Of a stretch of 39,177 nt of DNA, positions 21,802-39,177 are shown piece by piece (within the stretch, counting starts at the first letter, position 1; every line of letters starts with the position of its first letter). The stretch is from an uncultured Micavibrio sp. (GTDB lineage: Bacteria; Pseudomonadota; Alphaproteobacteria; Micavibrionales; UBA1664): the NCBI GenBank assembly GCA_937896295.1, contig CALBME010000086.1, positions 1 to 39,177 on the forward strand, written 5' to 3'. The translations under genes were made by a program, and so were the position numbers. Under the pieces are notes generated by a model. The model saw nothing but the letters and a program-made list of their open reading frames with translations, had not been told where the DNA came from and did no database searches.

Positions 21802-21807
21802 AGGCTT

Positions 21808-22830
21808 TTAAAAGAGACCGGAAGGGCCGAGCGGCGCACCATCCGCTGGCGATGCGCTGGGCGGGGGTGCCGGCTGGCCCTCCACCGGCATCGGACCGGG
21901 CGTTGATGCGATGGGGGGCGGTGTGTTGCCGTCCACGCTGCCGCCTGTGGCGTTGGCCACGATATTCGCAGCCGCGGCGCGGGCCTCACTTGTCGAACCG
22001 TTTGCGCCGCTGGGCAGGTTGCCCGTATCGACACCGGATGATGACAACGCCTCGGCCAGCGGATTGATCGCCTGCATATTTGCGTTGCTGTCTTCTTCGC
22101 CGGGTGCCGGACGCAATTTGATCATCTCGCCGTCCATGGACACACGGACATCGCCCGGGCGGACGCTTTCAACGACCGTGCCATCCGGCAGGCGTGTACC
22201 GGCATGAACGGTATACCGAATGGTGGGATCGGTGGAATGCACAAGAACGCCTTTGCATTCGCCGGCAAGGCAGGTCAGTTCTGCCCATTTATAACGGGTC
22301 TTGCGGGCTTCGATTTCGGCAAGGCGCGCTTTTTCTTCGGCCTCTCTCTTCTTGCGGGCGGCCATTTCCTCGTCGGACTCGCCTTTTTTGCGGTCGGGTT
22401 CAGCCTCTTTGGCTTTCACGACCATGTCCTGGTAATATTTTTTACGCTCCGCGACCAGGTCGCTGTAAAGCTCGGGATAGGCGGCAAGGCAGGGACCGTT
22501 GGCGGGCAGTTGCTCGCAAATGCCGCGCGGCGGCGGCGGGGCCGGGAAGCTTACCCCCATGCCGCCATAGGCCTCGACGATCTTGTCGAGTGCGGACTGG
22601 CGCATGACCAGCTTGTCGAGCAGGCTGATCTGGTAATTCAGCTTCATCGTATCGGACAGATACGGGTTGCCGATCGCATAAAACGAATCGTCAAAATCGA
22701 CACCCAGATTGGCGATTTCATCGGCGGTGATGATCTGCGGAATGGCAAAGGGTGGCATTTCTTGGGCCTTCGCGCCGCCGGAAAATACCAAGCCACTGAT
22801 AAATAAAGACAATATTGCTAAATGGCGCAT
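21808..22830 (-). CDS. secreted protein with a PilP-like C-terminal domain (second copy)
   Basis: Signal peptide 'ILSLFISGLVFSGGAKA/Q'. A charged coiled coil, then 'YKWAELTCLAGECKGVLVH...GTRLPDGTVVESVRPGDVRVSMDG', which parallels the C-terminus of the PilP-like protein at 31448-32275. Confidence 0.6.
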   Translation of the reverse strand: MRHLAILSLFISGLVFSGGAKAQEMPPFAIPQIITADEIANLGVDFDDSFYAIGNPYLSDTMKLNYQISLLDKLVMRQSALDKIVEAYGGMGVSFPAPPPPRGICEQLPANGPCLAAYPELYSDLVAERKKYYQDMVVKAKEAEPDRKKGESDEEMAARKKREAEEKARLAEIEARKTRYKWAELTCLAGECKGVLVHSTDPTIRYTVHAGTRLPDGTVVESVRPGDVRVSMDGEMIKLRPAPGEEDSNANMQAINPLAEALSSSGVDTGNLPSGANGSTSEARAAAANIVANATGGSVDGNTPPPIASTPGPMPVEGQPAPPPSASPADGAPLGPSGLF

Positions 22831-22876
22831 CGAATGAATCCCTGCTCACCATTATAAGCGAAAACAGGGGCCACTT

Positions 22877-24382
22877 CTACGGCCCAGCGCAACCGTCAAA
22901 GCATTGGCCGAAATTGCTGATATTCAGGGTGCGAATATTCACGCGCGGCGCGGTAATGGTCCGCTCCCGCCCCGGGCCTGTACCGCCAAAGACAAGGTCG
23001 CCCGAATTTCTGATATCAATGACGCCGGCCTTGCCGTTCGCCACGTTGATATTGCCCTGGGTCACGATACCGCTGCGCAGCTGGTTGTCGACCAGCAGCG
23101 ATTGTGATGCAACCGACGTGGCCGACAGGCGATGGGCATCGACCGTGCCAGCTGTCAGCACCCCGCCATCCGGCATGGTCAGGACGGTGTTGTTGGTATT
23201 CGTCAGGTTGCCGGTGGCGACTGTCGAACCGTCAAGGAAACGGGCGTTGTTGGTCACCTCGACCAGGTCCTGCGTACCCATGCCGTCATTGCCGTCACCA
23301 TCCACGATCAGATGGTTCTGGGCGTTATAATCCTGTTTTTCAGTATCAGTCAGCGCGTTTTCGATACGCAGGTTATTCGTGCGCGACGTATCCGCAATCA
23401 GGGCTGAACCGTTCACGCTCATCGTATTGCTGACGGTGGCTGACCCCTTGACGATGGCCGTGCCACTGACGCACAGGACATTGTTTTCACAATCCGCATG
23501 AAGACCGGGATTGGACGCGGCTGTAAGGGCGCGCGCTGAACCGTCATTACCGATATTGATATCGTCGCCGCCAAAAATATCGTTACCGCCAAGATTGAGT
23601 GGACCGAACATCGTATTGCGGCGCAGGGCGGGATCGACGTCCGGCAGGCGGTGCAGGTAATCACCGCCGACTTCTTCGATGTTTTTGTACATGTAATAGA
23701 CGAAATAACTGCCGTCTTCGAGGGAATCGAGGTCCGGATTAAGGTTGTTGATGTACCACGCCGTGTTTTGCAGGCCATCGCTCGGGTTGATCTGCCACGA
23801 TCCGAACGCGCTTTCGATGCGGGCGTCCGTCTTCGCGCCGTAACTGCGGATGAAGCCGCCATGTGGTCCGGCCTCTGTAGCGGCTGTGCGCACCTGGCTG
23901 TCGGGTCGTGGTGTGGTGGTGATGATCATCACGTCCAGTGCCGGGTCATCATTGGGATCGGCCCGGTCATCCGCCACGCGCAGCAGGATGCGCACATTGG
24001 AGCGAATGGGCGCATAGTCGCGGAACTGCGGGTTAAACAGACGCGACCCCTGAATGGTCACGCCATTCACGACAAAATTCTTGGTGATGTTGTTGGTGGC
24101 GGGCGCGGTCTGGTCGGCAATCAGCTCATAGCCGCCATTGCCGACGGCGGGATCGGCCGCTGCCTGGTAAAGCGCGTTGAAATTATCCAGATCCTGCAGG
24201 ATAAGGTTCATCGACTCCGCGATGGTGTTCATGTACTTGGCATTCGACCGCGCCATTTCGCGTTCACCGAATGTCTGCAGCAGAAGGAAAACTGCAATCA
24301 TCAGCGCGAAGACGACCCCGACGGACAGGATCATCTCCAGCAATGAAAAACCAGCCGTGTGTCTGCGTCTTTTGATCATCAT
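22877..24382 (-). CDS. large PilV-like minor pilin / putative adhesin (501 aa)
   Basis: Prepilin N-terminus 'RRRHTAG/FSLLEMILS' with Glu5. 'YLHRLPDVDPALRRNTMFGPLNLGGNDI' resembles the shufflon-protein constant-region motif. T/N/G/V-rich repeat-like C-terminal half. Confidence 0.75.
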   Translation of the reverse strand: MMIKRRRHTAGFSLLEMILSVGVVFALMIAVFLLLQTFGEREMARSNAKYMNTIAESMNLILQDLDNFNALYQAAADPAVGNGGYELIADQTAPATNNITKNFVVNGVTIQGSRLFNPQFRDYAPIRSNVRILLRVADDRADPNDDPALDVMIITTTPRPDSQVRTAATEAGPHGGFIRSYGAKTDARIESAFGSWQINPSDGLQNTAWYINNLNPDLDSLEDGSYFVYYMYKNIEEVGGDYLHRLPDVDPALRRNTMFGPLNLGGNDIFGGDDINIGNDGSARALTAASNPGLHADCENNVLCVSGTAIVKGSATVSNTMSVNGSALIADTSRTNNLRIENALTDTEKQDYNAQNHLIVDGDGNDGMGTQDLVEVTNNARFLDGSTVATGNLTNTNNTVLTMPDGGVLTAGTVDAHRLSATSVASQSLLVDNQLRSGIVTQGNINVANGKAGVIDIRNSGDLVFGGTGPGRERTITAPRVNIRTLNISNFGQCFDGCAGP

Positions 24383-26130
24383 GAACAGCTGTAAGAGTGA
24401 TAGGCCTGACCGGAATTACCGGTACTGCGCGTAAACGTGCATTCACCGTAGTACTGCCAGCCATACAATGTGTTGCGCCAGTACTGACACATATATCCTG
24501 TGCCTGTGCCCCAGCAATTATCATAGACGGTATTACCAAGGTAATAGGTCGAACCGCGCGGCTCGCAATAGGTACGGCCATTCGTATGGGCGACGCATTC
24601 AATCTGGCGCGCGGCACCGCTGGGCGTGTTCATATTCGGATCGCTGTACCCGCCGGGGGCCTGCGCATTATCAAGATAAAGAATGGCGCTGTTGCCCGGC
24701 GCGTCCGCGGTAACGTTTGCGGCGGCCAGCCGTCCGGTCAGCTGGACGCCGTTGCCGACTTCCATCTGGTTGGTACTGAACTGGAAGGCGGGGCCGGGGG
24801 CCGCCCGTGCCATGACCAGCTGATTGGACGTGGCGCCGTTGGTGACAGACATGTTGCCCGCCTGATATTGCTCCGCAATGATGCTGCCGCCGGTGATGTT
24901 GGTGGTGGGTGCAAGCGCGGTGGTGCTGGTGTTCATCGTCGCGCCGGTCACCGTATCAAAGGTGGAAATGCCCGCGACGTTCGTCGTGTTCTGCACATTC
25001 GTAAAATCGGTGATGACGTTGCCCTTGGCGACCATGTTGTTGGCAACCATCATACGGCCGTCGCCGCCTGCCTCGCCCACTGTCTGGATCTCGCCACCGC
25101 TGATGGCGCATCCCGATCCGCTCAAGACGCGGTTGCCGCCATCGACAGCCGCTGAAAAGCTGCAGCCTGCTGTGGGGGTTTTCATGTTCAGGCGTACGTC
25201 ACCGCCCGTATCGATACGCAATGCCTGTTCCACCGTCATGGCCTGTGCTGTGTCGGCCGCAGCCCCTTGCGCCTGACCGCGGAAAGCCGCGTTGCCTTCT
25301 ACCAGGAATTTGTCCGCGATGACCGTGCCGGTGTTCTGCAGTTCATTGGCGTTCATGTCCAGGTTCGTCTGCATCCGGTTCAGTTCAGGACGTCCGTCGA
25401 TCTGCACGCGGTACAGCCAGTGATCGTTGGCATCCGAAAATTCTGAACTGACCAGATCGTAGGTCGCCAGATACCCGCCATCCGTATCGGGTGTGGCGGC
25501 ATAACCCGCCGCTGCCAGTGCCGCGCGCGGCACCGACCATTGATTGAGAACTGACGCCACAACGTTGGTGAAAGTCATGCTGGGCATGACCAGATCGGCG
25601 GAAATGCCCATCGCGGGGCCGCCTGCTGTAGCAGCATCGATAAGACGCTTGTTTCCTGCGCGGACGACATCGCCGGGTGGGTTGTCTGAAACCACGACCA
25701 CCTCGATCGTGGTCAGGATGATGAAATTACCGAATGAATCCATCATCGCGTTGCCGGCAGTGTCGATTTTATTGACCTGCAGGTTGCGGCGGAAAACACG
25801 CATCTGCTGGCGGAATGCGTTTATGGGTTCGTAAGCCGACGGCAGGTAGTTATCCGGCTTCATGTCGTCGACGTCGATTTCCTGGAATATGTTCGGCGGA
25901 TCGGCGCTGAACGTATCGAAATTGGCAAGCACGTAGTCATGCGCCGCCGTCCGCAGGCGCAGCATGTCTGTCGCCGCCTGCCTGTTAATCGCCCGCTCGG
26001 TCCATGAATTGAATATACCGTACATTCCTGCCAGCAGCAGGCCAAGAACGCCAATCGACAACAGCAGTTCCAGCAGGGTGAAACCTGCCTGTCTGTGCGC
26101 GTGGGTACCTGTATATCTCTTCATATCCAT
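24379..26130 (-). CDS. large PilV-like minor pilin / putative adhesin (583 aa)
   Basis: Prepilin N-terminus 'HRQAG/FTLLELLLS' with Glu5, and 'WLYRVQIDGRPELNRMQTNLDMNANELQN'. Cys/Tyr/Trp-rich C-terminal module. ATGA overlap with the next gene. Confidence 0.75.
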   Translation of the reverse strand: MDMKRYTGTHAHRQAGFTLLELLLSIGVLGLLLAGMYGIFNSWTERAINRQAATDMLRLRTAAHDYVLANFDTFSADPPNIFQEIDVDDMKPDNYLPSAYEPINAFRQQMRVFRRNLQVNKIDTAGNAMMDSFGNFIILTTIEVVVVSDNPPGDVVRAGNKRLIDAATAGGPAMGISADLVMPSMTFTNVVASVLNQWSVPRAALAAAGYAATPDTDGGYLATYDLVSSEFSDANDHWLYRVQIDGRPELNRMQTNLDMNANELQNTGTVIADKFLVEGNAAFRGQAQGAAADTAQAMTVEQALRIDTGGDVRLNMKTPTAGCSFSAAVDGGNRVLSGSGCAISGGEIQTVGEAGGDGRMMVANNMVAKGNVITDFTNVQNTTNVAGISTFDTVTGATMNTSTTALAPTTNITGGSIIAEQYQAGNMSVTNGATSNQLVMARAAPGPAFQFSTNQMEVGNGVQLTGRLAAANVTADAPGNSAILYLDNAQAPGGYSDPNMNTPSGAARQIECVAHTNGRTYCEPRGSTYYLGNTVYDNCWGTGTGYMCQYWRNTLYGWQYYGECTFTRSTGNSGQAYHSYSCS

Positions 26131-26133
26131 GTC

Positions 26134-27942
26134 TTACGGCGTAATGTTTGGCGGGACATACTGACGGTCGGCGCAGGCGTTCGCTACGTTTGCACCTTCC
26201 AGGCAGCGCCCGGTGGTGTTGATGATGGGCAGCGGCGCGTTACGGTCCGCATTACTGGTTGTACCGGCGCTCACCAGCGCATTTCCGGCCAGGAACTGAA
26301 GGTCGGCATTGCTGCCGCCCGGCTGCGCGCTGGTCACATTGATGGTGCCCGTATCGGCGATTTCACCGGCGATGGCGGTATAGGCTGAAGGCACGCCGCC
26401 GTTCATGATCGGCGTACTGCCCACCACGGTCGCGGTTGAATTGCTTAAATTCAGGGTGTTTGTGATCTGTGCCTGTGTACCGGTGCTGTCTGTAACGTGG
26501 ACCTGCGCACTATTGCCGGTCATCGTATCGGTAATCAGTTCGGCTGTGACGCCGCCGCCAAAATTCCGGACCATCATGTTTCCGGACAGGTTGGTGGATG
26601 TGGTGACGTTCATCTGCGCGGGGCCGGTGGTCGTGCCTGCGCTGATGGAATCAAAGGTCGGCGTATCCAGTCGGTCGCTGACCAGTGCGTTGGCTTCGCT
26701 GATGGAACCGATCAGGGCATGACCCTTTGCCGCCACGTTGTTGGAATAGGCATAGGCATTGCGTTCCACAACCAGTGTGCCATTGGGGACGTTAAAGCGG
26801 TCATTCACGCCCGCAGGCAATGCGCGGGTATTGTAGACGCGCAGGTCACTGCCCAGGGCGATATTACCGTTCACGCGCATGGAATCGTCGTTACCGTTAC
26901 CGATGAAAACATTGGTATCACCGCCGAAATCGGCGGTCTGCGGCATGGCTACAAGGCGCTGTGCCTGGATATTGGCGACATGGTTGATGTTGTAACGCAG
27001 GTCAGTGGTGGCGGAATCCGACAGCGCGTCGCACACATTGGTGGTTTCCTGATATGTGGCGCCGGCCGCATTCGTTGCCGTAAATTGCACCTGATTGGAT
27101 GTCAGTGAACAATCGCCCGTCGGCGTTCCCATGCCAAGATCGGTCAGCATGGTGGCGTAGCCGGGATTTTCCGGCTGCGGAAAGCGTAAAACCGCGCGTA
27201 AATCCGGTTGAACGGCCTTCCACGCCGGCATGATCAGCGCACCGGGTTCAAGCACTGTCGGGCCGCCAAGGGGCGCCACAAGCGCGGCGAATTCATCGGG
27301 ACGCAGGCAGCCTGTATCCCAGATGGCCGCCGCCGGGCCGCCGCCGCGGCAATCTGCCGAAACGTTGGTGTCGGTGCTGTCAAACAAGGGGGCGGTGATG
27401 GCGACGTTTTCTTTTCGGATGGCGGCGACCATTTCAACCGTCAGGTTTTTGGCGCCTTTACCGCCCGGTGCGTAATACACGAATGCCGAAGGCACGGTTG
27501 CGGGGTCCGTCGGTGACGATGCAATACCGTTCGGGCCCCAGTTGGCCATGATGATAAAGACAGGCATGTTCAGTGCGTTGATCTGCTGGCCGCCGGCATC
27601 GACGCGTCCGAAATTACCAGGCAGGTAACCGTCCGCAATCAGTGTCGCCAGCGGAATGGATGTTGGCGTGGCGGCAGTGGCGCGCAATGTGGCATCGGCG
27701 GCATAACGGTCGCGCATGTAAAGACGCGCGGCCTTGGCGATCTCGACCAGTTCCCATCCGGCGACACGCGCCTCTATCTTGCGGACTTCAAAGCTGCTGA
27801 AACGGGCAATGGTGACAAGGATGGCACCGAAGAAGGCGACAAAAATCAAAGCCAGTAAAAGCGAAATGCCTTTCTGGTCCCTTCTCCCTGCGCACAAGGG
27901 AGGCGTGATGGCTCTGACGGCCTTTATACGTCTCCGTGTCAT
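26134..27942 (-). CDS. large pilin-like protein lacking Glu5 (602 aa)
   Basis: Basic leader, then 'KG/ISLLLALIFVAFFGAILV', a hydrophobic pilin-type helix with Leu at position 5. T/N/G-rich C-terminal half like its two neighbours. Its stop lies 3 nt before the next start. Confidence 0.65.
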   Translation of the reverse strand: MTRRRIKAVRAITPPLCAGRRDQKGISLLLALIFVAFFGAILVTIARFSSFEVRKIEARVAGWELVEIAKAARLYMRDRYAADATLRATAATPTSIPLATLIADGYLPGNFGRVDAGGQQINALNMPVFIIMANWGPNGIASSPTDPATVPSAFVYYAPGGKGAKNLTVEMVAAIRKENVAITAPLFDSTDTNVSADCRGGGPAAAIWDTGCLRPDEFAALVAPLGGPTVLEPGALIMPAWKAVQPDLRAVLRFPQPENPGYATMLTDLGMGTPTGDCSLTSNQVQFTATNAAGATYQETTNVCDALSDSATTDLRYNINHVANIQAQRLVAMPQTADFGGDTNVFIGNGNDDSMRVNGNIALGSDLRVYNTRALPAGVNDRFNVPNGTLVVERNAYAYSNNVAAKGHALIGSISEANALVSDRLDTPTFDSISAGTTTGPAQMNVTTSTNLSGNMMVRNFGGGVTAELITDTMTGNSAQVHVTDSTGTQAQITNTLNLSNSTATVVGSTPIMNGGVPSAYTAIAGEIADTGTINVTSAQPGGSNADLQFLAGNALVSAGTTSNADRNAPLPIINTTGRCLEGANVANACADRQYVPPNITP

Positions 27943-28030
27943 GATACCATATTGTAGATTAAGGGGATTAAGACTTTGTGAACTCTTGATAAATTCTACC
28001 TGAATCGCTTTTTAAAGGGATGGAAAAAGC

Positions 28031-28062
28031 ACAAAGAAAAGAGGCCCCGAAAAGGGGCCTCT
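28031..28062 (-). terminator. Rho-independent terminator / attenuator after the major pilin gene
   Basis: On the minus strand: AGAGGCCCC-uuuuc-GGGGCCUCU followed by UUUCUUUGU. Lies 29 nt after the pilin stop. Confidence 0.65.
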
Positions 28063-28090
28063 TTGTATTCAAGTCCTTGAAAGACCGGTC

Positions 28091-28648
28091 TTACTGGAAG
28101 GTCCAGGTCATTTCGTTGTTGGCGGCGGTGTCAGAGCAGGCTGCGGTCATCTGAGCCTGGGTGATTGCACCGGACGTCTGGTCAAAGGTCGTGCCACCGG
28201 CAACCAGCGAGATAAAGTCGTTGGCGTTCTGTGCACTGAACTGTTGGCCCAGGCGGATGCATGCACCGCGCGGAACGTTGGTAAACACGATTTCAAAGCG
28301 GTTGTCTTGAGCATTGACTTCAACCGGGCCGAACGGGCCTTTTGCAGTCATTGCAGCGCCGGCGCCGTTGGTACCGAGATCCGACGGAAGCGCGCGCATG
28401 TCAGCGAGTTCTCCCAGGATGTTGGCGTTGGCAGCACCGTATGTGGATTGCCCCTGATAAGCCTGCTGAACCTGTTGTTTCAGCGTAGTCAGAAGACGGG
28501 TGGCTTGGTTGGTATTGTTATTTTCCGAGACAAGGCGGTAAGCGCCGAGACCGGCGAGGATAAGGACCGCGCCGACGGCAACAACCAGCAGCAACTCGAG
28601 AAGTGAGAAGCCGGACTGGCGGCGTGTATTAGGGCAATTGATTTTCAT
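28091..28648 (-). CDS. pilS: type IV major pilin (R64 PilS-like, type IVb)
   Basis: 'MKINCPNTRRQSG/FSLLELLLVVAVGAVLILAGLGAY' prepilin cleavage/methylation motif with Glu5. C-terminal Cys pair (GACIRL...AACSD). Codon usage suggests high expression. Symbol follows R64 nomenclature. Confidence 0.85.
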   Translation of the reverse strand: MKINCPNTRRQSGFSLLELLLVVAVGAVLILAGLGAYRLVSENNNTNQATRLLTTLKQQVQQAYQGQSTYGAANANILGELADMRALPSDLGTNGAGAAMTAKGPFGPVEVNAQDNRFEIVFTNVPRGACIRLGQQFSAQNANDFISLVAGGTTFDQTSGAITQAQMTAACSDTAANNEMTWTFQ

Positions 28649-28711
28649 GTGTTTTTTTCTCCAGGCTTTCAGAATAGGCGGATTCGCCTAAAAATTTATT
28701 AAACTACGAAC

Positions 28712-28796: not shown

Positions 28797-29876
28797 TTAT
28801 TCCTGCGACGTCTGAATCTGCTGGAATACCGAGTAAAACGAGATAATCAGGCAGCCGATGACAATGGCGATCAGGATCAGGATGACGAAATTGACGATTT
28901 TCATCGCCGTATTGACCTTCTCGACCAGCCCGTCCACCCACGTATTAGTGACGCGGATCAGGTTCTGGTCGAATCCGCGCAGGCGGGCGTAAATCTGAAG
29001 ATCGCCGATAATTTCGGCATCCGGGAATTCATATCCCGTGTTGAACAGGGCGTCGCCCAGGTTTTCGCCACCGGCGATATATTTCTGCAGGGCTTTGACG
29101 CGCTGTTTCAGGTAAGGCGATGACAGGCGGCTGATACGCTGCAGACTGACCTCGTCCAGTTTGACCCCTGCCGACATCAACGACGCGATAGAAAGCAGGA
29201 ACGCCGAACCCTGCCACATCTTATACATGCTGTATGGCACCATCCGGTCGGCATAAATGCGCGCCTTTCCGGTCCAGCGCGGCATGGACATACTGACCGT
29301 CACAATGACGCCGCACACACCCATGAGAATGAACAGGCCCTGTTCACGGATGAATCGCGCCGCGATGGCGACACCGTAAGCGACGCCCTCCCATTTATCG
29401 ACGGGAATGATCTGCTCGAACGTCGGAATCACCTTGAAGGATGACAGCACCATGGCCGCCACCAGCATGGCGACCAGCACGGCCGGGTATGCGCCGGCGG
29501 TGATGATCGCCTTTTTGATCTTGCCCTGGTTTTCGATGGCATCGGCCGCATTGTGCAGGGATTTGAGGAGTTTGCCCGAGTTCGCGCCGGTTTCGATCAG
29601 GATGGCTTCGGCGCTGGGAACATAGGGGCCGACACACTGGCCGAAGTTCATGCCTTCCGCCACGTTGTTACGCCATTTTTTATACAGTTTGGGCAGGGCC
29701 GAGCGCGGCTTGTTGCGCGCGGCAATTCTGCCGATTTGCGCCAGCGCCGTATCAAGCGACACACCGTTCTCGAGCAGTTGCATCAGCTTGATGTAAAATT
29801 TCTGCCGCTGCTCTCCGCTGAACTCCATTTTAACGGAGAGATTGAACCAGGTGTCTGTCTTGCGCTTTTTGGCCAT
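28797..29876 (-). CDS. pilR: type IV pilus inner-membrane platform protein (GspF/PilC family; R64 PilR equivalent)
   Basis: 359 aa with a cytoplasmic helical domain plus three or more TM segments. Lies directly after the GspE-type ATPase. Symbol follows R64 nomenclature. Confidence 0.85.
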   Translation of the reverse strand: MAKKRKTDTWFNLSVKMEFSGEQRQKFYIKLMQLLENGVSLDTALAQIGRIAARNKPRSALPKLYKKWRNNVAEGMNFGQCVGPYVPSAEAILIETGANSGKLLKSLHNAADAIENQGKIKKAIITAGAYPAVLVAMLVAAMVLSSFKVIPTFEQIIPVDKWEGVAYGVAIAARFIREQGLFILMGVCGVIVTVSMSMPRWTGKARIYADRMVPYSMYKMWQGSAFLLSIASLMSAGVKLDEVSLQRISRLSSPYLKQRVKALQKYIAGGENLGDALFNTGYEFPDAEIIGDLQIYARLRGFDQNLIRVTNTWVDGLVEKVNTAMKIVNFVILILIAIVIGCLIISFYSVFQQIQTSQE

Positions 29877-29894: not shown

Positions 29895-31448
29895 CTATCC
29901 GCGCTTGGGAAGAATGATCGGACCCACGATACGCTCGGCATCGCCCGGGTCCACTTCGCCTGCACGCAGGCGATCGACCATATGCTCCATCATGTTTTTA
30001 CCGTTCAGCGATGTCAGCCAGTATTGCTCGGCGTCCTGCTTCTGGTCGCGGCGCACCATATCCATGAACGTGTTGTCGGGAATGATGATTTCCGAGACGA
30101 CGGTACGGCTTGAATAACCAGTACTGTTGCATTTCGGGCAACCCTGCGGGTTACGCTTGCGCAGGCGTTCCACGGGCACCTGCGCGGCTTCAAGGCGCGC
30201 CAGCAGGTTGTAGTTAAGCTCTTTTTCCTCGATCGGCAGGCAGCATGACTTGCACAGTTTGCGAACCAGGCGCTGTGAAATCATACCCGTCATCAGCGTG
30301 GGATCGCACAGCTTGTATTCCTCGACCTCAAGGTCACGCAGACGGAAAGGAATGGTGATCGCATCGTTGGAGTGGAGCGACGTCCACACTTGGTGGCCGG
30401 TCATCGCGGCTTCAAACGCAAGGCCGGCGGATGCGGCGTCGCGCACCTCACCGATCATGATACGGTCCGGGTTCGAACGCATGGCGGCGGCGATGGCCTT
30501 GGTGAACTGGGCCGCACGCTCTTCCTGCGTGTTGGCGTTGGTCACCGGCATCTGCACGGCGCCCTGAATCGGGTATTCCGGCGGATCTTCCACGGTGTAG
30601 AAGGCGAGGTTGTAATTATATTCCTTCAGAATCGCGATGATGTTCCGCTGCAGGGTCGTGGATTTGCCGTGACCCGTGGGGCCTGCGACCACGTTGATGC
30701 CATACGGCTTGGAGCGCAGGAACTCGAAATCCTCCAGCTGCTCGGGCGTGAAACCGAGGGCCGCGACGTCACCGGCGGTTTTGTCGTCGGTGTTGTACAG
30801 GATACGCAAAATCATTGCGCGACCGTCATAAACGGTCGGGTTGAACTGCAGACGAAGGGAAATCACGCCCTCCGGCAACTGCAGGTCCTTACGGTTCGAA
30901 ACCCGCGCACCCTGATATTCATAGGGCTGGTAGTTGACGTCGGCGGCATCCGCCATGGTGAACGCGGCGGCGCAGAAGCTATGGCCGTATTCCGGCGGCC
31001 ATTCGGCGATGTGTTCCATGGCGCCCGCGACCCGCGCGCGTACAAGGCAGCTTTGTTCATAGACGACAACGTGAATATCCGAAACCCGGCGCTTGGCCAT
31101 GTCACCAACGAGGTTCAACACCTCGCGGCGCATCCGCACCTCGTCCTGTTTGGAACGGAAGTCGAAAGATCCGGCCGTACGTTCGTACGAAAGCTGGACG
31201 CGGTTCAGTTCGACGCCTTCGATGACCGGCTCGGGGTAACCGTTTGCGCGGATCTCGGCGATCAGGGACAGGATATGCGGCGACGACCGGTGCGACTTGG
31301 ACACGATCATCTTACCGTCGATATAATAGGCGGCAATCTGGCGCAGGTTCTGGCCGCGATCCAGCGGCCCACCCTCCGCCGTCAGCGGTACGGCGGGATC
31401 CCAGTGGTCATTGGCTTTCTTCTTGCCTGGCAGAAGAGAAAACGCCAT
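29895..31448 (-). CDS. pilQ: type IV pilus assembly ATPase (GspE/PilB family; R64 PilQ equivalent)
   Basis: Walker A 'GPTGHGKST', Asp box 'VEDPPE', Walker B 'RIMIGEVRD', His box 'TGHQVWTSLH' and a tetracysteine 'CKSCC...CPKC'. TGATG overlap with the upstream gene. Symbol follows R64 nomenclature; this is not the type IVa secretin. Confidence 0.92.
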   Translation of the reverse strand: MAFSLLPGKKKANDHWDPAVPLTAEGGPLDRGQNLRQIAAYYIDGKMIVSKSHRSSPHILSLIAEIRANGYPEPVIEGVELNRVQLSYERTAGSFDFRSKQDEVRMRREVLNLVGDMAKRRVSDIHVVVYEQSCLVRARVAGAMEHIAEWPPEYGHSFCAAAFTMADAADVNYQPYEYQGARVSNRKDLQLPEGVISLRLQFNPTVYDGRAMILRILYNTDDKTAGDVAALGFTPEQLEDFEFLRSKPYGINVVAGPTGHGKSTTLQRNIIAILKEYNYNLAFYTVEDPPEYPIQGAVQMPVTNANTQEERAAQFTKAIAAAMRSNPDRIMIGEVRDAASAGLAFEAAMTGHQVWTSLHSNDAITIPFRLRDLEVEEYKLCDPTLMTGMISQRLVRKLCKSCCLPIEEKELNYNLLARLEAAQVPVERLRKRNPQGCPKCNSTGYSSRTVVSEIIIPDNTFMDMVRRDQKQDAEQYWLTSLNGKNMMEHMVDRLRAGEVDPGDAERIVGPIILPKRG

Positions 31449-32275
31449 CAGCTTTTCACCCAGTCCAGCGGCTTGACGCCTTTGTCATCACGAATGGTCA
31501 CACCTGCCGGCGTCACGCGCACAACGGTGGTCTTGCCGTCCGGCAGCTTGGCGCCGGTCTTGGCGCGGATTTCATCGCCCTCGGGGCTGACCAGCTTGGC
31601 TTCGACGCCGCCGCCCGCGCTGTAAATTTCACGGATCGTCCAGGGCATGGCCGGTTTTTCAGGCTCTGCCGCCTTCGCCGGCGCTTCGTTGTCCGCAGGC
31701 GCGCTGGAAGGTGCGGGCATGCTGGGCACCGGGCGGCCCTGCGCGATGTTCGGTCCGACATCGGCACCGGCAAGCGCGTTGGCAGGCAGGGGCATCAGGC
31801 CCATGCCGCCCGCGCGTTGTGCGCCTGCCATGCCGGGAGGGGCTTGCAGGCCCAGCGCCGCATCCGCGGCGGCGACGTTTTTGACAACGCTTTCGTTCAG
31901 GCGTTCAAGCAGCTGCGCGCGCTGGACGCACAGCGTGAAACGGTCGATATCTTCCTGCACCTTGGCCAGATCGTCGGGCGACGCGTTCAGCGCGGCTTCC
32001 GGCGCGGGGCACGGATCGGTGGCGGGCGGTCCGTCGTTCTGAACCGTTTTCGGCTGTTCGGGCATGCCGGATGAAGCTGCTGCCTGTTGTTGCGGGGCTG
32101 CAGCCTGCGCCTGTCCCTGGTCTTGCGGCTGCTCCAGCGTGGGGGCTGCTGACGCGCCCGGTGCGTTCAGTTGGGATTCGTCGGGCGCGGCAACGTCCTG
32201 CGCATGGGCGCCTGCGGCAAACGTGATAAACGCAGCCGCTGTCAAAAGACGAAAAAGGGCGGTTCGTGATGTCAT
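31448..32275 (-). CDS. pilP: PilP-like pilus biogenesis protein (R64-type)
   Basis: Signal peptide 'AFITFAAGAHA/Q', a Q/A/P-rich linker, and the C-terminal domain 'PWTIREIYSAGGGVEAKLV...GAKLPDGKTTVVRVTPAGVTI'. Confidence 0.7.
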   Translation of the reverse strand: MTSRTALFRLLTAAAFITFAAGAHAQDVAAPDESQLNAPGASAAPTLEQPQDQGQAQAAAPQQQAAASSGMPEQPKTVQNDGPPATDPCPAPEAALNASPDDLAKVQEDIDRFTLCVQRAQLLERLNESVVKNVAAADAALGLQAPPGMAGAQRAGGMGLMPLPANALAGADVGPNIAQGRPVPSMPAPSSAPADNEAPAKAAEPEKPAMPWTIREIYSAGGGVEAKLVSPEGDEIRAKTGAKLPDGKTTVVRVTPAGVTIRDDKGVKPLDWVKS

Positions 32276-32287
32276 CGTTTTTACTCC

Positions 32288-32995
32288 TTAATTTGCGTTC
32301 GCGGCCAAAAGCTGGCGCGCTTTGGAATTGGCGGCAATCAGGCGGGCGTCGGGGCGCAGGATCAGCTTGGCGCTGTAAACCCAGATTCCGTCGCTGACGC
32401 TTGTCGACATGTTCAGGAACACAAGTCCCGGCAGGTCGAAATATTTTCCGATCATGTTCGGCGGCGTGCTGCTCTTCAATTCGATGGCCAGGTACGGCAT
32501 GTCATCGCGGGTCAGCGGCTTCAGTTCAACCTTGTCTTTACCGATCGCGTTAAAGCCGGACTGTTGAATCATCTCCACACTCTGGACCAGCTGCTGGCTG
32601 GCTGCCGGCACGACCTCCCGCAGGGTGATCTGGCCGATATTCGCAAACCGCTTGGTCAGGATGATGATAGCATAACTTCTGTCCAAAAGCTCCTGTGCTT
32701 CGGTCGGCTCAAGCTTCGCGGTCAGACGGCGGTTGGCGATAAGGTTCTGCGAATCGGCAAAATTACGGGTCACGCCTTCGGGGAAACGCGACAGGTACGG
32801 CTCCACCATTTCATAAGACCCGATCTGGCGGTTCCAATTCCCCTCGACGATTGTGTCTTTGCAGCGCAGGGTTACCATTTTCCAGCCCGGCAACGGCACG
32901 GCCAGCGCGGCAAAGCCGTCGAGACAGCTGTTCATCTGTTCGCTTGGTACCAGCAATCCCATCTTGGTCAGGGACATGCCGCTTTCTTCCTGCAC
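32288..32995 (-). CDS. PilO-like protein, C-terminal (periplasmic) part; probably the downstream half of a frameshifted gene
   Basis: No signal peptide or TM of its own. Its reading frame stays open far upstream into the preceding ORF. GTG (32995) or ATG (32977) start if it is independent. Confidence 0.55.
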   Translation of the reverse strand: MQEESGMSLTKMGLLVPSEQMNSCLDGFAALAVPLPGWKMVTLRCKDTIVEGNWNRQIGSYEMVEPYLSRFPEGVTRNFADSQNLIANRRLTAKLEPTEAQELLDRSYAIIILTKRFANIGQITLREVVPAASQQLVQSVEMIQQSGFNAIGKDKVELKPLTRDDMPYLAIELKSSTPPNMIGKYFDLPGLVFLNMSTSVSDGIWVYSAKLILRPDARLIAANSKARQLLAANAN

Positions 32996-33807
32996 AACGC
33001 TTGGTTCTTTCGGAGGGACCTGCAGTACGTCGGACGACTCGATACCCGGCAGGGGCAGCTGCGCCTCATCGGTACCAGCGACGTCAGAAGGCTTTGCCCC
33101 GCAATCGACACGACCAGCAGCACGACGATGGTTGCGATCGCGCCAAACGCCAGGTTCTTGTTGCGCTTGCCCGAAAAAATAGCATCCAGGTTGACGGGCT
33201 TGAGGATGGATGGCGGCGCCTCGCCAATGACGCGGGAAAGCGGAATTTCACCGGTCGCATCCGGCACGTTCCACGATTCCGGCGCATAGGCGCGCGGCCA
33301 GCGGAATGCTTCGCCCTGCGCCATGAAATGGTTATAGGCGGCTTCTTCGGATGAAAACAGGATATCGCCGTCCGGGGCGATGTTGTCCGAGTGAACGGCG
33401 ACATACCACCAGCCATTGTCGGCTACGAAAACGGCGTGCCACTCGCCGACAAGCGCATCCGCCGCGACGGACGCCAGTGCCGACTGGCCCAGCCGGTGGC
33501 CTTTGCGCAGGTAACCGAAACCATGCTGCGTGACCACGCCCTGACGCATGGTATAGAAATCGGCTTTGAATTCCTTCGCGCGGCCCTTGGCCAGGGCTGT
33601 GTCGCCCTCGTCATCCGCGATCAGCCAGTTGAGACCGACGGCATAACGCTTGTTGTCGTAAAGAAGAATGCCTTCGCCGCTGGGGCCCTTGGCGGGTTGG
33701 GCGGTGATTTCCTCATGCACCGCCGCCTCAGCCTCAGCCATATCCAGTGGCTCATCGAGATCGATGTCCAGGAAATCCTTGTCGCTGTTGTCGTCGTTGC
33801 GGGCCAT
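32968..33807 (-). CDS. PilO-like pilin accessory protein, N-terminal cytoplasmic domain plus TM; the last ~35 codons look out of frame
   Basis: Acidic N-terminus and a globular domain ('YAVGLNWLIADDEGD...WWYVAVHSDNI'). TM helix 'LAFGAIATIVVLLVVSIAG', then an implausible Arg/Cys-rich tail. Confidence 0.6.
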   Translation of the reverse strand: MARNDDNSDKDFLDIDLDEPLDMAEAEAAVHEEITAQPAKGPSGEGILLYDNKRYAVGLNWLIADDEGDTALAKGRAKEFKADFYTMRQGVVTQHGFGYLRKGHRLGQSALASVAADALVGEWHAVFVADNGWWYVAVHSDNIAPDGDILFSSEEAAYNHFMAQGEAFRWPRAYAPESWNVPDATGEIPLSRVIGEAPPSILKPVNLDAIFSGKRNKNLAFGAIATIVVLLVVSIAGQSLLTSLVPMRRSCPCRVSSRPTYCRSLRKNQALCRKKAACP

Positions 33808-33826: not shown

Positions 33827-35425
33827 TTACTGGTTGCCGATCACCGTGATCGGATCTTCCGGCAGGATCTCCGAAGTAATCAGCATCACCGTAACTTCGC
33901 GGTCGCGGTTGGTGTTTTTGCTTCCGCCCAGGATCGGCAGGTACGGCGTACCCTGATCCGTCTTGGAATTGAGTTTCTTCTCAAAGCCCGCCAGAACCAG
34001 CGTCTCGCCCGAAGTGACGACGGCGTTCTGCAGGAAGCCGGTCGTTTCCACTTCAGGCAGCTGGATCGACGCAGCCGAGTCGCCCGAACCGGACGTAAAC
34101 GTTGCGAAAGGTTGTTGCGCATCCGTGATGGCGACTGAAAGACGCATCAGGATTTTGTTGCCCTCAACAATACGCGGCAGGATCGTCATCATAAGGCCGG
34201 TGTTGACCGTGCCGGGCTCGAGGCTGACCGAACCGCCGGTATCGCCCGAAGTCGACGAGGTGCGTTTCAGGTAGCTGATCTGGCGGCCAACCTGCAGCGG
34301 CGCGGGCTGGTCGGACAGCGTAACGATGGCGCCGGAATGGGCGACGGATGCGCGCGTGACGTTGCTGTTCGCCTTGAATTCGGCGAGCAGGCGGTCGGTG
34401 CTGACCTGGGTGGCGACCGCCGTATCTTGTGGTGCGCGGATGACGCCCAGCGCAAGGCCGGACGTGGCGCCGCCGATGCTGCGTACTGATGTCATGCCGA
34501 ACGCGCGGCGGACAATGCCGGTGACGTCTGCCGAAAGGTCGAGGTCGTTGTTCGCGGTCACCGAAATGACTTTCACGGCGATGGCCACGCGGCGCAGGCG
34601 CATGCTGTTCTGCTGGTTCAGGTAAGCTTCGACGCGGCGGACGATGTCCGGCTCGCCGGTGACGGTGATGGTGCCCGTGCTGGGTGAAAACGCGGCCTTG
34701 CCGGCGTCGCCCATGATGGTGGAAACAGCGTCCTTGATTTCATCCCAGACTTTGAGGGATGCGCTGGAGGTCACGTCAACTTCCGGCAGGTTCGATGCCG
34801 AGTCGCCCGAGCTTCCCGATTTAACCGTGCCTTTATACGATAATTCGCTGGCCAGTGCGTGCAGCATGAAGGTGCGCGTGATTTGCTGCGCGAAATCGAT
34901 GCTGGTGCCGTCATAATGCCAATCGGCGTTGAAATAATCGGCTGCCTGATTCAGCAGGTCGGAAAGACGGCCCGACCATACGACGCGTCCGCCTGCGACC
35001 TGTTCGCCGTCGGTGGGCATGAAGGTTTTTTCCGTCGTGGTGGTGGCGGCGCTGAGCGACGTGCCCGTGGCGGCTGCGCGCAGGCCGGTAACGGCCTGCA
35101 CCATGCGCATCAGTTCTTCCATCGTCACCGGACGGGCAAAGGTCATGACGATGGCGTTTTGCGTTTCAAACTGCGGTGGCAGGGCCGAGCCGTTGGTGAT
35201 CGGCACTGCCGCCGAACCGTAATAGGGGTTGGAATCGATGGTCAGGGATTGCGCGACCGGATTTTTGGGGCTGATGTCGGTCAGAGCGCGGTCGGCGCTG
35301 ACGGTCATGTCCTCGTAATTCGTATCGACGGTGCGGACTTCGGCACAGGATGTCAGGCCCAGCCCTGCCGCGAACAGAAGGGCGGGAAGGGTCTTGGCGA
35401 AACCTTTGAAGGGCGAAAGCATCAT
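33827..35425 (-). CDS. pilN: outer-membrane lipoprotein secretin (R64 PilN / BfpB type)
   Basis: Lipobox 'GLGLTSC'. C-terminal secretin motif 'TLVLAGFEKK...GTPYLPILGGSKNTNRDREVTVMLITSEIL'. Start taken at the MM (35425) preceding the signal peptide; the ORF track starts at 35515. Confidence 0.85.
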   Translation of the reverse strand: MMLSPFKGFAKTLPALLFAAGLGLTSCAEVRTVDTNYEDMTVSADRALTDISPKNPVAQSLTIDSNPYYGSAAVPITNGSALPPQFETQNAIVMTFARPVTMEELMRMVQAVTGLRAAATGTSLSAATTTTEKTFMPTDGEQVAGGRVVWSGRLSDLLNQAADYFNADWHYDGTSIDFAQQITRTFMLHALASELSYKGTVKSGSSGDSASNLPEVDVTSSASLKVWDEIKDAVSTIMGDAGKAAFSPSTGTITVTGEPDIVRRVEAYLNQQNSMRLRRVAIAVKVISVTANNDLDLSADVTGIVRRAFGMTSVRSIGGATSGLALGVIRAPQDTAVATQVSTDRLLAEFKANSNVTRASVAHSGAIVTLSDQPAPLQVGRQISYLKRTSSTSGDTGGSVSLEPGTVNTGLMMTILPRIVEGNKILMRLSVAITDAQQPFATFTSGSGDSAASIQLPEVETTGFLQNAVVTSGETLVLAGFEKKLNSKTDQGTPYLPILGGSKNTNRDREVTVMLITSEILPEDPITVIGNQ

Positions 35426-35595
35426 GGACGTGTGGCCACCGGCTGGAGATGTTTTAAGAGAAAGACGAAATCTAGCGATCCCGCCTGCGTTATGACGACT
35501 CAAATTGTACGGCAAGCAAGCGCCCGAGAGAAGCGGAATTACAAGGGCCTAGGCGGCATATGAGCGCGGCGGCAGGGAAGATTGGGTGGGAATTT

Positions 35596-36816: not shown

Positions 36817-36939
36817 GACCCTCGGAAAACTGGCAGGCGGGTGCGAATCATCCGCCCCGTCTTTTCTGTGCGAAAGTTTAAGATCGCTTGCGCCAAAACA
36901 CAAGCTGTTCAAAGACATGGCGGTGGATAGAATGGACGC

Positions 36940-37521
<582 letters not shown>

Positions 37522-39039: not shown

Positions 39040-39177
39040 TCGTACGGCCTCGGCTGGAGTTGGGACGGACCCGTGATCTGCAACGCACGGTCGCCCACGC
39101 GCATTTCCTTGCCGCCGCCGGTGACGCCGCCGCAAGGCAGGCCCTCGCGGAACGCCTGCGCCGCGATACCGCCGGCA
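39018..39177 (-). CDS. 3' end of an upstream gene truncated by the window edge (unknown; position expected for DotC/TraI)
   Basis: This frame has strongly G/C-biased third positions ('...AGGIAAQAFREGLPCGGVTGGGKEMRVGDRALQITG...'). It ends at a TAA at 39018-39020, overlapping the ATPase start by 22 nt. Confidence 0.45.
   Translation of the reverse strand, partial: AGGIAAQAFREGLPCGGVTGGGKEMRVGDRALQITGPSQLQPRPYEWQPASR

What the first reader, a model, noticed from the sequence alone, without database searches (positions are those of the whole stretch)
22877..27942. Three tandem, translationally coupled giant PilV-like pilins instead of one shufflon-variable adhesin
Directly after the pilin terminator lie three pilin-type ORFs of 602, 583 and 501 aa, separated by a 3-nt gap and a 4-nt overlap. 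Each has an N-terminal pilin helix. Each has a central motif resembling the shufflon-protein constant region (WLYRVQIDGRPELNRMQTNLDMN / YLHRLPDVDPALRRNTMFGPLNLG / VLRFPQPENPGYATMLTDLGMG). Each has a long T/N/G/V/A-rich C-terminal half with short degenerate repeats (for example 'GSATVSNTMSVNGSALIADTSRTNNLRIENAL' and 'NVTTSTNLSGNMMVRNFGGGVTAELITDTMTGNSAQVHVTD'), which suggests a beta-solenoid. In R64 a single PilV gains alternative C-termini through Rci-mediated DNA inversion. Here no rci gene or sfx-like repeats are visible, and the diversity appears hard-wired as three paralogs. Pilins of this size with solenoid-like tips would be unusual. They could form a composite tip complex or alternative adhesins.
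Basis: partly seen in the sequence, partly recalled or inferred. Interest (0 to 1): 0.8.

Follow-up and report, generated by a model that had tools for sequence, protein, structure and literature searches.

The report
Three-part tip set of a chromosomal pilus
A chromosomal type IVb pilus gene cluster, found in relatives of the predatory bacterium Micavibrio, carries three large, different PilV-like minor pilins in a fixed order, one lacking the usual Glu5, which suggests a three-protein pilus tip rather than one variable adhesin.

Summary
Three minus-strand genes follow the major pilin gene and its terminator-like hairpin: A (26134-27942, 602 aa), B (24379-26130, 583 aa) and C (22877-24382, 501 aa). 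They are separated by a 3-nt gap and a 4-nt overlap.

- **Homology:** only B reaches Pfam Shufflon_N. Profile comparison shows all three N-terminal halves, including the central motif, are homologous. The T/N/G/S-rich C-terminal halves are unrelated to each other.
- **C-terminal fold:** AlphaFold2 models of A and C (B not modelled) give beta-rich C-halves at low confidence. No significant repeats or periodicity were found, so a beta-solenoid is not shown.
- **No shufflon:** the window has no sfx-like repeats and no recombinase.
- **Not recent paralogs:** A, B and C are three old families kept 1:1:1, in the same order and with overlapping junctions, in 9 distinct loci from Micavibrio and related Alphaproteobacteria MAGs. 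More distant loci have only an A-like plus a B-like gene.
- **Glu5:** family A never has Glu5; B, C and the major pilin do.

Best reading (inferred): A caps a heteromeric A-B-C complex that starts pilus assembly and forms an adhesive tip. This would be a three-gene counterpart of the TcpB/CofB homotrimer. I rate it a new variant of a known kind, of moderate interest.

The parts
28091..28648 (-). Major pilin (PilS/bundlin type, 185 aa), with leader ...RRQSG|FSLLELLL and Glu5 present
   Evidence: Pfam PilS 4.8e-12, Bundlin 1.7e-9, N_methyl 8e-7
28038..28064 (-). Intrinsic-terminator-like hairpin with T-run between the major pilin gene and gene A. It probably lowers transcription into the minor pilin genes (inferred).
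   Evidence: A comparable hairpin plus T-run sits directly after the pilin stop in all 8 loci examined, although the sequences differ.
26134..27942 (-). Gene A: 602-aa modular minor pilin. It has a 25-aa leader, cleavage-type Gly, no Glu5 (Leu at +5), a PilV-like head domain and a beta-rich T/N/G/S-rich C-half. Proposed capping subunit.
   Evidence: AF2 N-domain residues 25-245 have pLDDT 80-92 and the C-half 30-60. Position +5 is never Glu in 26 homologs or in 71 representatives.
27127..27207 (-). Most conserved motif of A (residues 246-272, PDLRAVLRFPQPENPGYATMLTDLGMG)
   Evidence: 85% mean identity across the family. It aligns with the B motif. pLDDT is below 50 in the monomer model.
24379..26130 (-). 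Gene B: 583-aa PilV-family minor pilin (G|FTLLE, Glu5 present) with a Shufflon_N core, a beta-type C-half and a Cys-rich C-terminus
   Evidence: Pfam Shufflon_N 4.6e-11 and N_methyl. Matches plasmid PilV at 24-28% identity over residues 40-280. 21 homologs.
25345..25422 (-). Conserved motif of B (residues 237-262, HWLYRVQIDGRPELNRMQTNLDMNAN)
   Evidence: 70% mean identity. Lies inside the Shufflon_N match.
22877..24382 (-). Gene C: 501-aa minor pilin (G|FSLLE, Glu5 present). Its N-half is paralogous to B; its C-half is distinct and beta-rich.
   Evidence: hhalign B-C 99.6%, E 7e-25 over about 245 columns. AF2 N-domain pLDDT 80-94, motif 33-44, C-half 50-70. 17 homologs.
23585..23668 (-). Conserved motif of C (residues 239-266, GGDYLHRLPDVDPALRRNTMFGPLNLGG)
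   Evidence: 64% mean identity. Aligned with the B motif.
21808..22830 (-). Conserved Sec-signal protein (340 aa) directly after the minor pilins. No family match. Its C-part is weakly PilP-like.
   Evidence: Present after the last minor pilin in every triplet and doublet locus. BLASTP against the cluster's PilP gives E 0.003. No Pfam, NCBIfam or PHROG hit.
28797..29876 (-). Platform protein (T2SSF/PilR-like)
   Evidence: Pfam T2SSF 7.8e-18
29895..31448 (-). Assembly ATPase (T2SSE/PilQ-like)
   Evidence: Pfam T2SSE 3e-67
31448..32275 (-). PilP-like protein
   Evidence: TIGR03021 3e-7, below the curated cut-off
32288..33807 (-). PilO-like gene, split into two frames in this window
   Evidence: Pfam PAP_PilO 1.2e-5. 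tblastn with the intact 507-aa ortholog switches frame near 33043-33067.
33827..35515 (-). PilN-family type IVb secretin
   Evidence: Pfam Secretin 8e-19. TIGR02520 2.2e-61.
35629..36918 (-). TcpQ-domain protein (PilL-like position)
   Evidence: Pfam TcpQ 4e-12

Best explanation
A, B and C are three non-interchangeable modular minor pilins of a chromosomal R64/PilN-type type IVb pilus in a Micavibrio-related alphaproteobacterium.

**Common build.** Each has a prepilin leader, a hydrophobic alpha-1 helix, a PilV (Shufflon_N)-type head domain, a strongly conserved linker motif and its own beta-rich C-terminal module.

**Proposed mechanism (inferred).**
1. Read-through of the terminator-like hairpin after the major pilin gene gives a low level of one coupled A-B-C message.
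2. An unlinked prepilin peptidase processes all three.
3. They assemble in the inner membrane into one heteromeric complex, probably 1:1:1. A lacks Glu5 and is the first, top-most subunit. B and C have Glu5 and dock beneath it.
4. The complex primes polymerisation of the major pilin and ends up at the pilus tip.
5. There the three different beta-rich C-halves form the distal adhesive module. In these epibiotic predators the likely target is prey-cell surface.

In effect this is a three-gene, position-specialised counterpart of the TcpB/CofB homotrimer, capped in the manner of GspK or PilX.

**Shown:** gene anatomy, homology of the N-halves, absence of Glu5 in A, conserved triplet order and coupling, and absence of a shufflon.

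**Inferred:** processing, stoichiometry, tip location, adhesion and prey as the target.
For: - **Gene anatomy and coupling:**
- **T4b machinery next door:** PilN-type secretin, PilO, PilP, ATPase, platform and a PilS/bundlin-type pilin.
- **N-halves homologous:** A-B 98% (E 1e-13), B-C 99.6% (E 7e-25), A-C 87% (E 4e-6). B reaches Shufflon_N and matches plasmid PilV.
- **Glu5 pattern:** B, C and the major pilin carry G|F[ST]LLE. Family A has L, I, V or F and never Glu at +5, in 26 homologs and 71 of 71 scorable 50%-identity representatives.
- **Conserved triplet:** same order A-B-C, each gene best matching its own family profile, in the window and in L001/L002, L003, L004, L006 (Micavibrio sp.), L014, L033, L034 and L035. 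A/B or B/C overlaps of 4 nt occur in most of them.
- **Obligatory pairing:** more distant loci keep an A-like (Glu5-less) plus one B-like gene, so A with a PilV-like partner is the conserved core and C arose by B/C duplication.
- **Similar divergence:** the three families diverge at similar rates, and the linker motif is the most conserved segment of each.
- **Hairpin:** a terminator-like hairpin after the major pilin gene is conserved in position in 8 loci.
- **Precedent:** T4b minor pilins TcpB and CofB have a pilin domain, a linker and beta-rich domains that trimerise at the tip (PMC9565799; PMC13533445).
- **Established knowledge, not tested here:** the tip-most pseudopilin or minor pilin (GspK, PilX/PilK) lacks Glu5.
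Against: - No direct evidence of interaction; no multimer prediction was possible with these tools.
- AF2 monomer models are low confidence for the C-halves and the linker motif, so the shape of the tip module is unknown.
- Foldseek found no significant match, not even to TcpB or CofB.
- PDB sequence searches matched only the alpha-1 helix.
- In this window PilO is frameshifted, so the machine may be inactive in this strain, or the assembly may contain an error.
- No prepilin peptidase is encoded in the window.
- The predator and prey-binding role rests only on the names of related MAGs.
Confidence: 0.55

Rival explanations
1. Alternative adhesins. Each protein can separately prime and tip a pilus, for example as a homotrimer like TcpB or CofB. 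This would give three hard-wired receptor specificities in place of shufflon switching.
For: The three C-halves are unrelated to each other. PilV C-termini set receptor specificity in the R64 and TP114 systems (PMC9045228, listed). The window has no shufflon.
Against: - Strict 1:1:1 retention, fixed order and translational coupling in 9 loci, with no loss, gain or shuffling.
- A is Glu5-less throughout its family and always has a Glu5-bearing partner, even in doublet loci.
- The C-halves are not hypervariable, at 42-44% identity against 49-52% for the heads.
Confidence: 0.2
2. Secretion or retraction role. One or more of the three act mainly like TcpB, being incorporated to trigger retraction or to carry a secreted partner. 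The conserved 340-aa Sec-signal protein downstream would be the partner, as with TcpF and CofJ. Adhesion would not be the main function.
For: A conserved secreted protein is always encoded immediately after the minor pilins. TcpB binds TcpF at the trimer interface (PMC9565799). A DotB/PilT-like ATPase lies nearby.
Against: The 340-aa protein has a weak PilP-like C-part, which points to a periplasmic assembly role. No similarity to TcpF or CofJ was found. This role does not exclude a tip complex.
Confidence: 0.12
3. A is not a pilin. It would be an uncleaved bitopic inner-membrane assembly factor that merely resembles PilV, leaving only B and C as minor pilins.
For: A has no Pfam or NCBIfam pilin hit, no Glu5 and a divergent alpha-1 sequence.
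Against: - A basic leader ending in Q-x-G, followed by about 20 hydrophobic residues, is conserved across the family.
- The globular head and linker motif are homologous to B over 229 aligned columns, at 98% probability.
- Glu5-less pilins such as GspK and PilX are a known class.
Confidence: 0.1

Closest known systems
R64/IncI and TP114 thin-pilus minor pilin PilV (Pfam Shufflon_N, PF04917) with the Rci shufflon
   Same: The machinery is of the same type: PilN-family secretin, PilO, PilP, ATPase, platform and a PilS-type pilin. B reaches Shufflon_N and matches plasmid PilV at 24-28% identity over the head domain. A and C match at profile level.
   Different: - The cluster is chromosomal, in a housekeeping and flagellar neighbourhood of the same G+C content.
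- No tra genes, rci, sfx repeats, PilT-type transglycosylase or PilU peptidase occur in the window.
- There are three separate genes instead of one gene with switchable C-termini.
- One of the three lacks Glu5.
- The C-halves are about 240-330 aa and unrelated to plasmid PilV C-termini.
TcpB (V. cholerae TCP) and CofB/LngB (ETEC CFA/III, Longus) type IVb minor pilins
   Same: These are large modular minor pilins with a pilin domain, a linker and beta-rich C-terminal domains. They are encoded after the major pilin, initiate assembly and sit at the tip as a trimer (PMC9565799; PMC13533445). A secreted protein is encoded in the same operon.
   Different: Those systems have one minor pilin gene forming a homotrimer. 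Here there are three different genes. No sequence or Foldseek similarity to TcpB or CofB was detected. A heterotrimer here is inferred, not shown.
GspI-J-K / PilV-W-X (PilI-J-K) tip initiation complexes of T2SS and type IVa pili
   Same: Several different minor pilins are encoded in tandem. One large member lacks Glu5 and caps the complex (established knowledge; PMC13533445).
   Different: No sequence relationship was found. Here all three subunits are large (500-600 aa) PilV-type proteins carrying their own big beta-rich modules. There is no PilY1/PilC-type non-pilin adhesin.
ComZ of Thermus thermophilus (pilin with a beta-solenoid domain) and Caldicellulosiruptor tapirins
   Same: These are precedents for a pilin, or a pilus-locus adhesin, carrying a beta-helical module (PMC6561018). 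Both appear among sub-threshold Foldseek hits of model C.
   Different: The hits are not significant (E 0.47 and 3.6). ComZ belongs to a type IVa competence system. The fold of the C-halves here is unresolved.

Membership tests
Type IV pilin (class III signal peptide protein) | Short basic leader ending in Gly, followed by about 20 hydrophobic residues forming alpha-1 | tested here: met
   A ...DQKG|ISLLLALIFVAFFGAILVTI; B ...RQAG|FTLLELLLSIGVLGLLLAG; C ...HTAG|FSLLEMILSVGVVFALMI. N_methyl Pfam hit for B and for some C orthologs. AF2 gives a long N-terminal helix in A and C.
Type IV pilin (class III signal peptide protein) | Glu at mature position 5 | tested here: met
   Met for B, C and the major pilin. 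Not met for A or for any of 26 plus 71 family-A members. A known minority class of capping minor pilins also lacks Glu5.
Type IV pilin (class III signal peptide protein) | Cleavage and N-methylation by a prepilin peptidase, and incorporation into the filament | not testable with these tools
   No peptidase gene in the window. This needs biochemistry or proteomics.
PilV / Shufflon_N (PF04917) | Match to the Shufflon_N constant-region profile above the curated cut-off | tested here: met
   B scores 43.2 bits against a cut-off of 27.5, but only over HMM positions 140-268 of 324. A and C have no direct hit. They are linked to B only by profile-profile comparison.
Shufflon (Rci/sfx DNA inversion system) | Multiple inverted sfx repeats flanking alternative C-terminal segments | tested here: not met
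   Only chance-level short repeats occur in 21700-28700. The recalled R64 sfx consensus gave 0 matches at up to 3 mismatches, with 0.65 expected by chance.
Shufflon (Rci/sfx DNA inversion system) | Adjacent rci tyrosine recombinase | tested here: not met
   No integrase or recombinase domain in any ORF scanned across the window.
R64-type type IVb pilus machinery | PilN-family secretin, PilO, PilP, PilQ-type ATPase, PilR-type platform and PilS-type pilin in one cluster | tested here: met
   TIGR02520 2.2e-61 (below the curated cut-off), PAP_PilO, TIGR03021, T2SSE, T2SSF and PilS/Bundlin. PilO is frameshifted in this window.
TcpB/CofB-type tip trimer | Sequence or fold similarity to TcpB/CofB domains 2 and 3 (beta-repeat and H-type lectin) | tested here: not met
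   No PDB sequence hit beyond alpha-1. No significant Foldseek hit. The models are low confidence in that region, so the fold test is weak.
TcpB/CofB-type tip trimer | Three minor-pilin subunits forming one complex at the pilus tip | not testable with these tools
   No multimer prediction was available. Inferred from 1:1:1 conservation and coupling.
GspK/PilX-type capping minor pilin | Glu5 absent, larger than its partners, first gene-product position in the complex | tested here: inconclusive
   Glu5 is absent and A is the first and largest gene. No sequence or fold similarity to GspK or PilX was found or specifically tested.
Beta-solenoid / beta-helix domain | Repetitive coils detectable as sequence repeats or periodicity, or a confident beta-helical model | tested here: inconclusive
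   No significant self-alignment: best off-diagonal E 0.003 for A, 0.1 for B and 0.27 for C. No significant hydrophobic period: z at most 2.4 against a 95% null of about 3. The AF2 C-halves of A and C are all-beta with pLDDT 30-70. Beta-helix folds dominate the non-significant Foldseek hits. B was not modelled.

The most novel reading that the evidence does not exclude
In Micavibrio-like epibiotic predators, the C3-symmetric homotrimeric tip of type IVb pili (TcpB/CofB type) has been replaced by a heterotrimer. Gene duplication would have produced three position-specialised, PilV-derived modular pilins: a Glu5-less cap plus two Glu5-bearing subunits. Their three different beta-rich modules would together form an asymmetric prey-recognition head. 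That would be the first heteromeric type IVb tip and a candidate prey-attachment device.
Probability: 0.35. Interest if true: 0.75.

Novelty: new variant of a known kind. Interest (0 to 1): 0.55.

Why it matters
Solved type IVb tips (TCP, CFA/III) are homotrimers of a single minor pilin. T2SS and type IVa systems instead use heteromeric complexes of small minor pilins with a Glu5-less cap. This cluster combines both ideas: large PilV-type modular pilins, three different ones, one without Glu5.

If the three form one complex, it would give a natural example of how a symmetric pilus tip becomes asymmetric through duplication. It would also give a concrete, testable candidate for how Micavibrio-like predators hold on to prey, which is currently unknown.

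There is a practical annotation point too. Public annotation calls only the middle gene PilV, often with a 'shufflon system plasmid conjugative transfer' label that does not fit a chromosomal locus without a shufflon. The other two genes are left as hypothetical proteins.

Tried and rejected
- **Pairwise BLASTP** among A, B and C found only weak N-terminal similarity. Profile comparison was needed.
- **Family searches on the C-halves:** Pfam at E up to 10, and full-length NCBIfam and PHROGs scans, gave nothing.
- **PDB sequence searches** with all three family profiles hit only the alpha-1 helix.
- **Foldseek** of models A (PDB) and C (PDB and BFVD) gave no hit at E <= 0.001. Sub-threshold beta-helix hits are recorded as a hint only.
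- **Homology between C-halves and internal repeats:** none significant.
- **Hydrophobic periodicity:** none significant.
- **Shufflon:** rejected, with no sfx-like repeats and no recombinase. The short 'GTGCCATCCGGCA'-like repeats are imperfect coding coincidences.
- **Mobile-element origin:** rejected for this locus. G+C is flat and the neighbours are housekeeping and flagellar genes with conserved synteny.
- **Expression in Micavibrio aeruginosavorus ARL-13:** I looked for this cluster in the supplement of PMC3189940. The stored file is cut and the cluster could not be located. The pilin genes named in that paper (GMV_902/903, 1530, 742-744) have other sizes and neighbours.


Full report
**1. 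What is there**

Three long ORFs lie head to tail on the minus strand: A (26134-27942, 602 aa), B (24379-26130, 583 aa) and C (22877-24382, 501 aa). The junctions read TAA-gac-ATG, a 3-nt gap, and ATGA, a 4-nt overlap.

Upstream on the same strand is a complete type IVb machinery:
- a TcpQ-domain protein
- a PilN-family secretin
- PilO and PilP
- a T2SSE ATPase
- a T2SSF platform protein
- a 185-aa PilS/bundlin-type major pilin

The major pilin gene is followed by an 11-bp G+C-rich hairpin with a T-run at 28038-28064.

Each of A, B and C begins with a basic leader ending in Gly, followed by about 20 hydrophobic residues. Each has 17-26 full-length homologs at about 40-66% identity. They are therefore real genes, not frame artefacts.

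**2. How the three relate to each other and to PilV**

Only B reaches Pfam Shufflon_N, at 43 bits over residues 216-340, and also N_methyl. B also matches annotated PilV genes on Cupriavidus, Ralstonia, Pseudomonas and Yersinia plasmids. Identity there is 24-28% over residues 40-280.

Pairwise BLASTP among A, B and C sees little beyond the N-terminal helix. Family profiles (alignments A1, A2, A3) show that the whole N-terminal halves are homologous:

| Pair | Probability | E-value | Extent |
|---|---|---|---|
| A-B | 98% | 1e-13 | 229 columns |
| B-C | 99.6% | 7e-25 | 245 columns |
| A-C | 87% | 4e-6 | first ~150 residues only |

That motif is the most conserved segment of each family: 85% mean identity in A, 70% in B and 64% in C. 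The heads are at about 50% and the C-halves at 42-44%.

The C-terminal halves are compositionally alike. T+N+G+S is about 40% and lysine almost absent. They show no detectable homology to each other. They match nothing in Pfam, NCBIfam, PHROGs or PDB sequences.

**3. Fold of the C-halves**

AlphaFold2 with the family alignments gives confident pilin-type heads:
- A, residues 25-245: pLDDT 80-92
- C, residues 11-235: pLDDT 80-94

The linker motif scores below 50, and the C-halves are all-beta at pLDDT 30-70.

Foldseek against PDB and BFVD returned no hit at E <= 0.001. The non-significant top hits are mostly beta-helical proteins. They include the tapirin C-domain (E 0.47), left-handed beta-helix enzymes, ice-binding proteins, HpmA and the ComZ pilin.

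Profile self-alignment and hydrophobicity autocorrelation found no significant repeat or period. The C-halves of A and C are thus modelled as beta-rich and not disordered, but a beta-solenoid is not demonstrated.

**4. No shufflon, and not a mobile element**

No repeat family resembling sfx sites occurs in 21700-28700. The recalled R64 sfx consensus has no match at up to 3 mismatches. No recombinase, tra gene, prepilin peptidase or lytic transglycosylase was found in any ORF scanned across the window.

G+C content is flat across the window. The neighbours are flgK and flgL, SCO1, PhoH, SecB, a Tim44-like gene, coaE, aroE and dnaQ-like genes. The same synteny recurs in relatives. This is a core chromosomal locus.

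**5. Comparative evidence**

The genome scan and contig look-ups place relatives in Micavibrio spp., in 'Pseudobdellovibrionaceae' MAGs and in unnamed Alphaproteobacteria or Rhodospirillales MAGs. NCBI files Micavibrio under Pseudobdellovibrionaceae.

The full set is pilin, A, B, C, then a 320-360-aa secreted protein, with convergent flgL and flgK. It is present in the window and in L001/L002, L003, L004, L006, L014, L033, L034 and L035. Each gene scores best against the profile of its own position. A/B overlap by 4 nt in L001, L003, L014, L033, L034 and L035. B/C overlap in every one of these loci.

More distant loci (L010, L012, L013, L015) have only two minor pilins: an A-like gene and one gene slightly closer to B than to C. 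Where the contig continues (L010, L012, L015), the same secreted protein follows. So the conserved core is A plus a PilV-like partner, and C arose by an old B/C duplication.

An exhaustive profile search found family A in only about 84 clusters at 50% identity (E <= 1e-30) among 1.84 billion representatives.

A terminator-like hairpin directly after the major pilin gene is conserved in position, though not in sequence, in all 8 loci examined.

**6. The key asymmetry**

B, C and the major pilin carry the canonical G|F[ST]LLE with Glu5. Family A never does. All 26 close homologs read G|[VIF]SLLLAL or similar. In 71 of 71 scorable representatives, position +5 is L, I, V, F or another non-acidic residue. 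The A-like genes of the doublet loci also lack Glu5.

From established knowledge of T2SS and type IVa systems, Glu5 neutralises the N-terminus of the preceding subunit. It is dispensable only in the first, tip-most subunit (GspK, PilX/PilK).

**7. Interpretation**

The evidence fits three non-redundant subunits of one tip and initiation complex better than three alternative adhesins. It consists of the fixed 1:1:1 triplet, the coupling, similar divergence rates, a Glu5-less first gene always paired with Glu5-bearing partners, and a very conserved linker motif that a monomer model cannot place.

The closest functional analogue is the TcpB/CofB tip. That is one large modular minor pilin with a pilin domain, a linker and beta-rich domains, and it forms a homotrimer that occupies the three tip positions of the filament (PMC9565799). 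[quoted passage not shown]

The present locus is a third arrangement: three large PilV-type modular pilins with a GspK-like cap. Processing, stoichiometry, tip location and binding target are all inferred. The link to prey attachment rests only on the taxonomy of related genomes. The Micavibrio genome paper mentions pilins only in general terms (PMC3189940).

**8.

The PilV-like nature and the absence of a shufflon are confirmed.

'Hard-wired diversity replacing a shufflon' is not supported. Large modular pilins are not unprecedented: TcpB, CofB and ComZ with its beta-solenoid are examples (PMC6561018). Three of them in tandem in a T4b locus, one without Glu5, was not found described in the searchable literature.

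**9. Caveats**

- PilO is split by a frameshift near 33043-33067 in this window. This is either a sequencing or assembly error or a broken machine in this strain.
- The structural models are weak for the parts that matter most.
- The sfx consensus used was recalled from memory.

Noticed in passing
window 32288-33807 (-), frameshift near 33043-33067: The PilO-like gene is split into two overlapping ORFs of 279 and 235 aa. Relatives have one 500-522-aa gene. tblastn with the L001 ortholog changes frame there. This is either an assembly error or a pseudogene that would disable the pilus.
   Followed up: partly
window 21808-22830 (-): A 340-aa protein with a Sec signal peptide, a coiled-coil-like charged stretch and a Pro-rich tail. 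It is always encoded right after the last minor pilin, in both triplet and doublet loci. It has no family hit. Its C-part is weakly similar to the cluster's PilP (E 0.003). It could be an assembly factor or a pilus-associated secreted partner.
   Followed up: partly
window 37879-39135 (-): A DotB/TraJ/PilT-like ATPase (TIGR02524 1.2e-119, below the curated cut-off). It lies just beyond the pil cluster, separated by a TMEM175-like channel gene at 36940-37521 (+). It is a possible retraction ATPase for this pilus.
   Followed up: no
window 28038-28064 (-) and the equivalent position in L001, L003, L004, L006, L010, L014, L015: A strong hairpin plus T-run directly after the major pilin stop is conserved in position but not in sequence. 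This suggests a conserved attenuator that sets the ratio of major to minor pilins.
   Followed up: partly
L010, L012, L013, L015: More distant alphaproteobacterial T4b clusters have two minor pilins instead of three: a Glu5-less A-like gene of 515-540 aa plus one B-like gene of 406-428 aa. In L009 (Rhodobacterales) the PilV-like gene itself appears to lack Glu5 (G|FALVG).
   Followed up: partly
whole window: No prepilin peptidase, lytic transglycosylase or recombinase gene was found in any ORF scanned. Pilin processing must depend on an unlinked peptidase.
   Followed up: partly
window 593-1912 (+) and 1982-2872 (+): Two tandem genes with the DUF6782 putative metallopeptidase domain.
   Followed up: no
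window 17197-18531 (+): A 444-aa ORF with no Pfam or NCBIfam match lies between SCO1 and flgK. A gene of 451-491 aa sits at the same position in all related loci.
   Followed up: no
window 11669-13645 (+) / 11711-13495 (-): Two long overlapping ORFs on opposite strands, of 658 and 594 aa. The plus-strand one has no family hit. The coding strand was not resolved.
   Followed up: no
public annotation of homologs: NCBI names the B orthologs 'shufflon system plasmid conjugative transfer pilus tip adhesin PilV', although the loci are chromosomal and this window has no shufflon. The A orthologs that carry a name are called 'hypothetical protein', and most C orthologs carry no name.
   Followed up: yes
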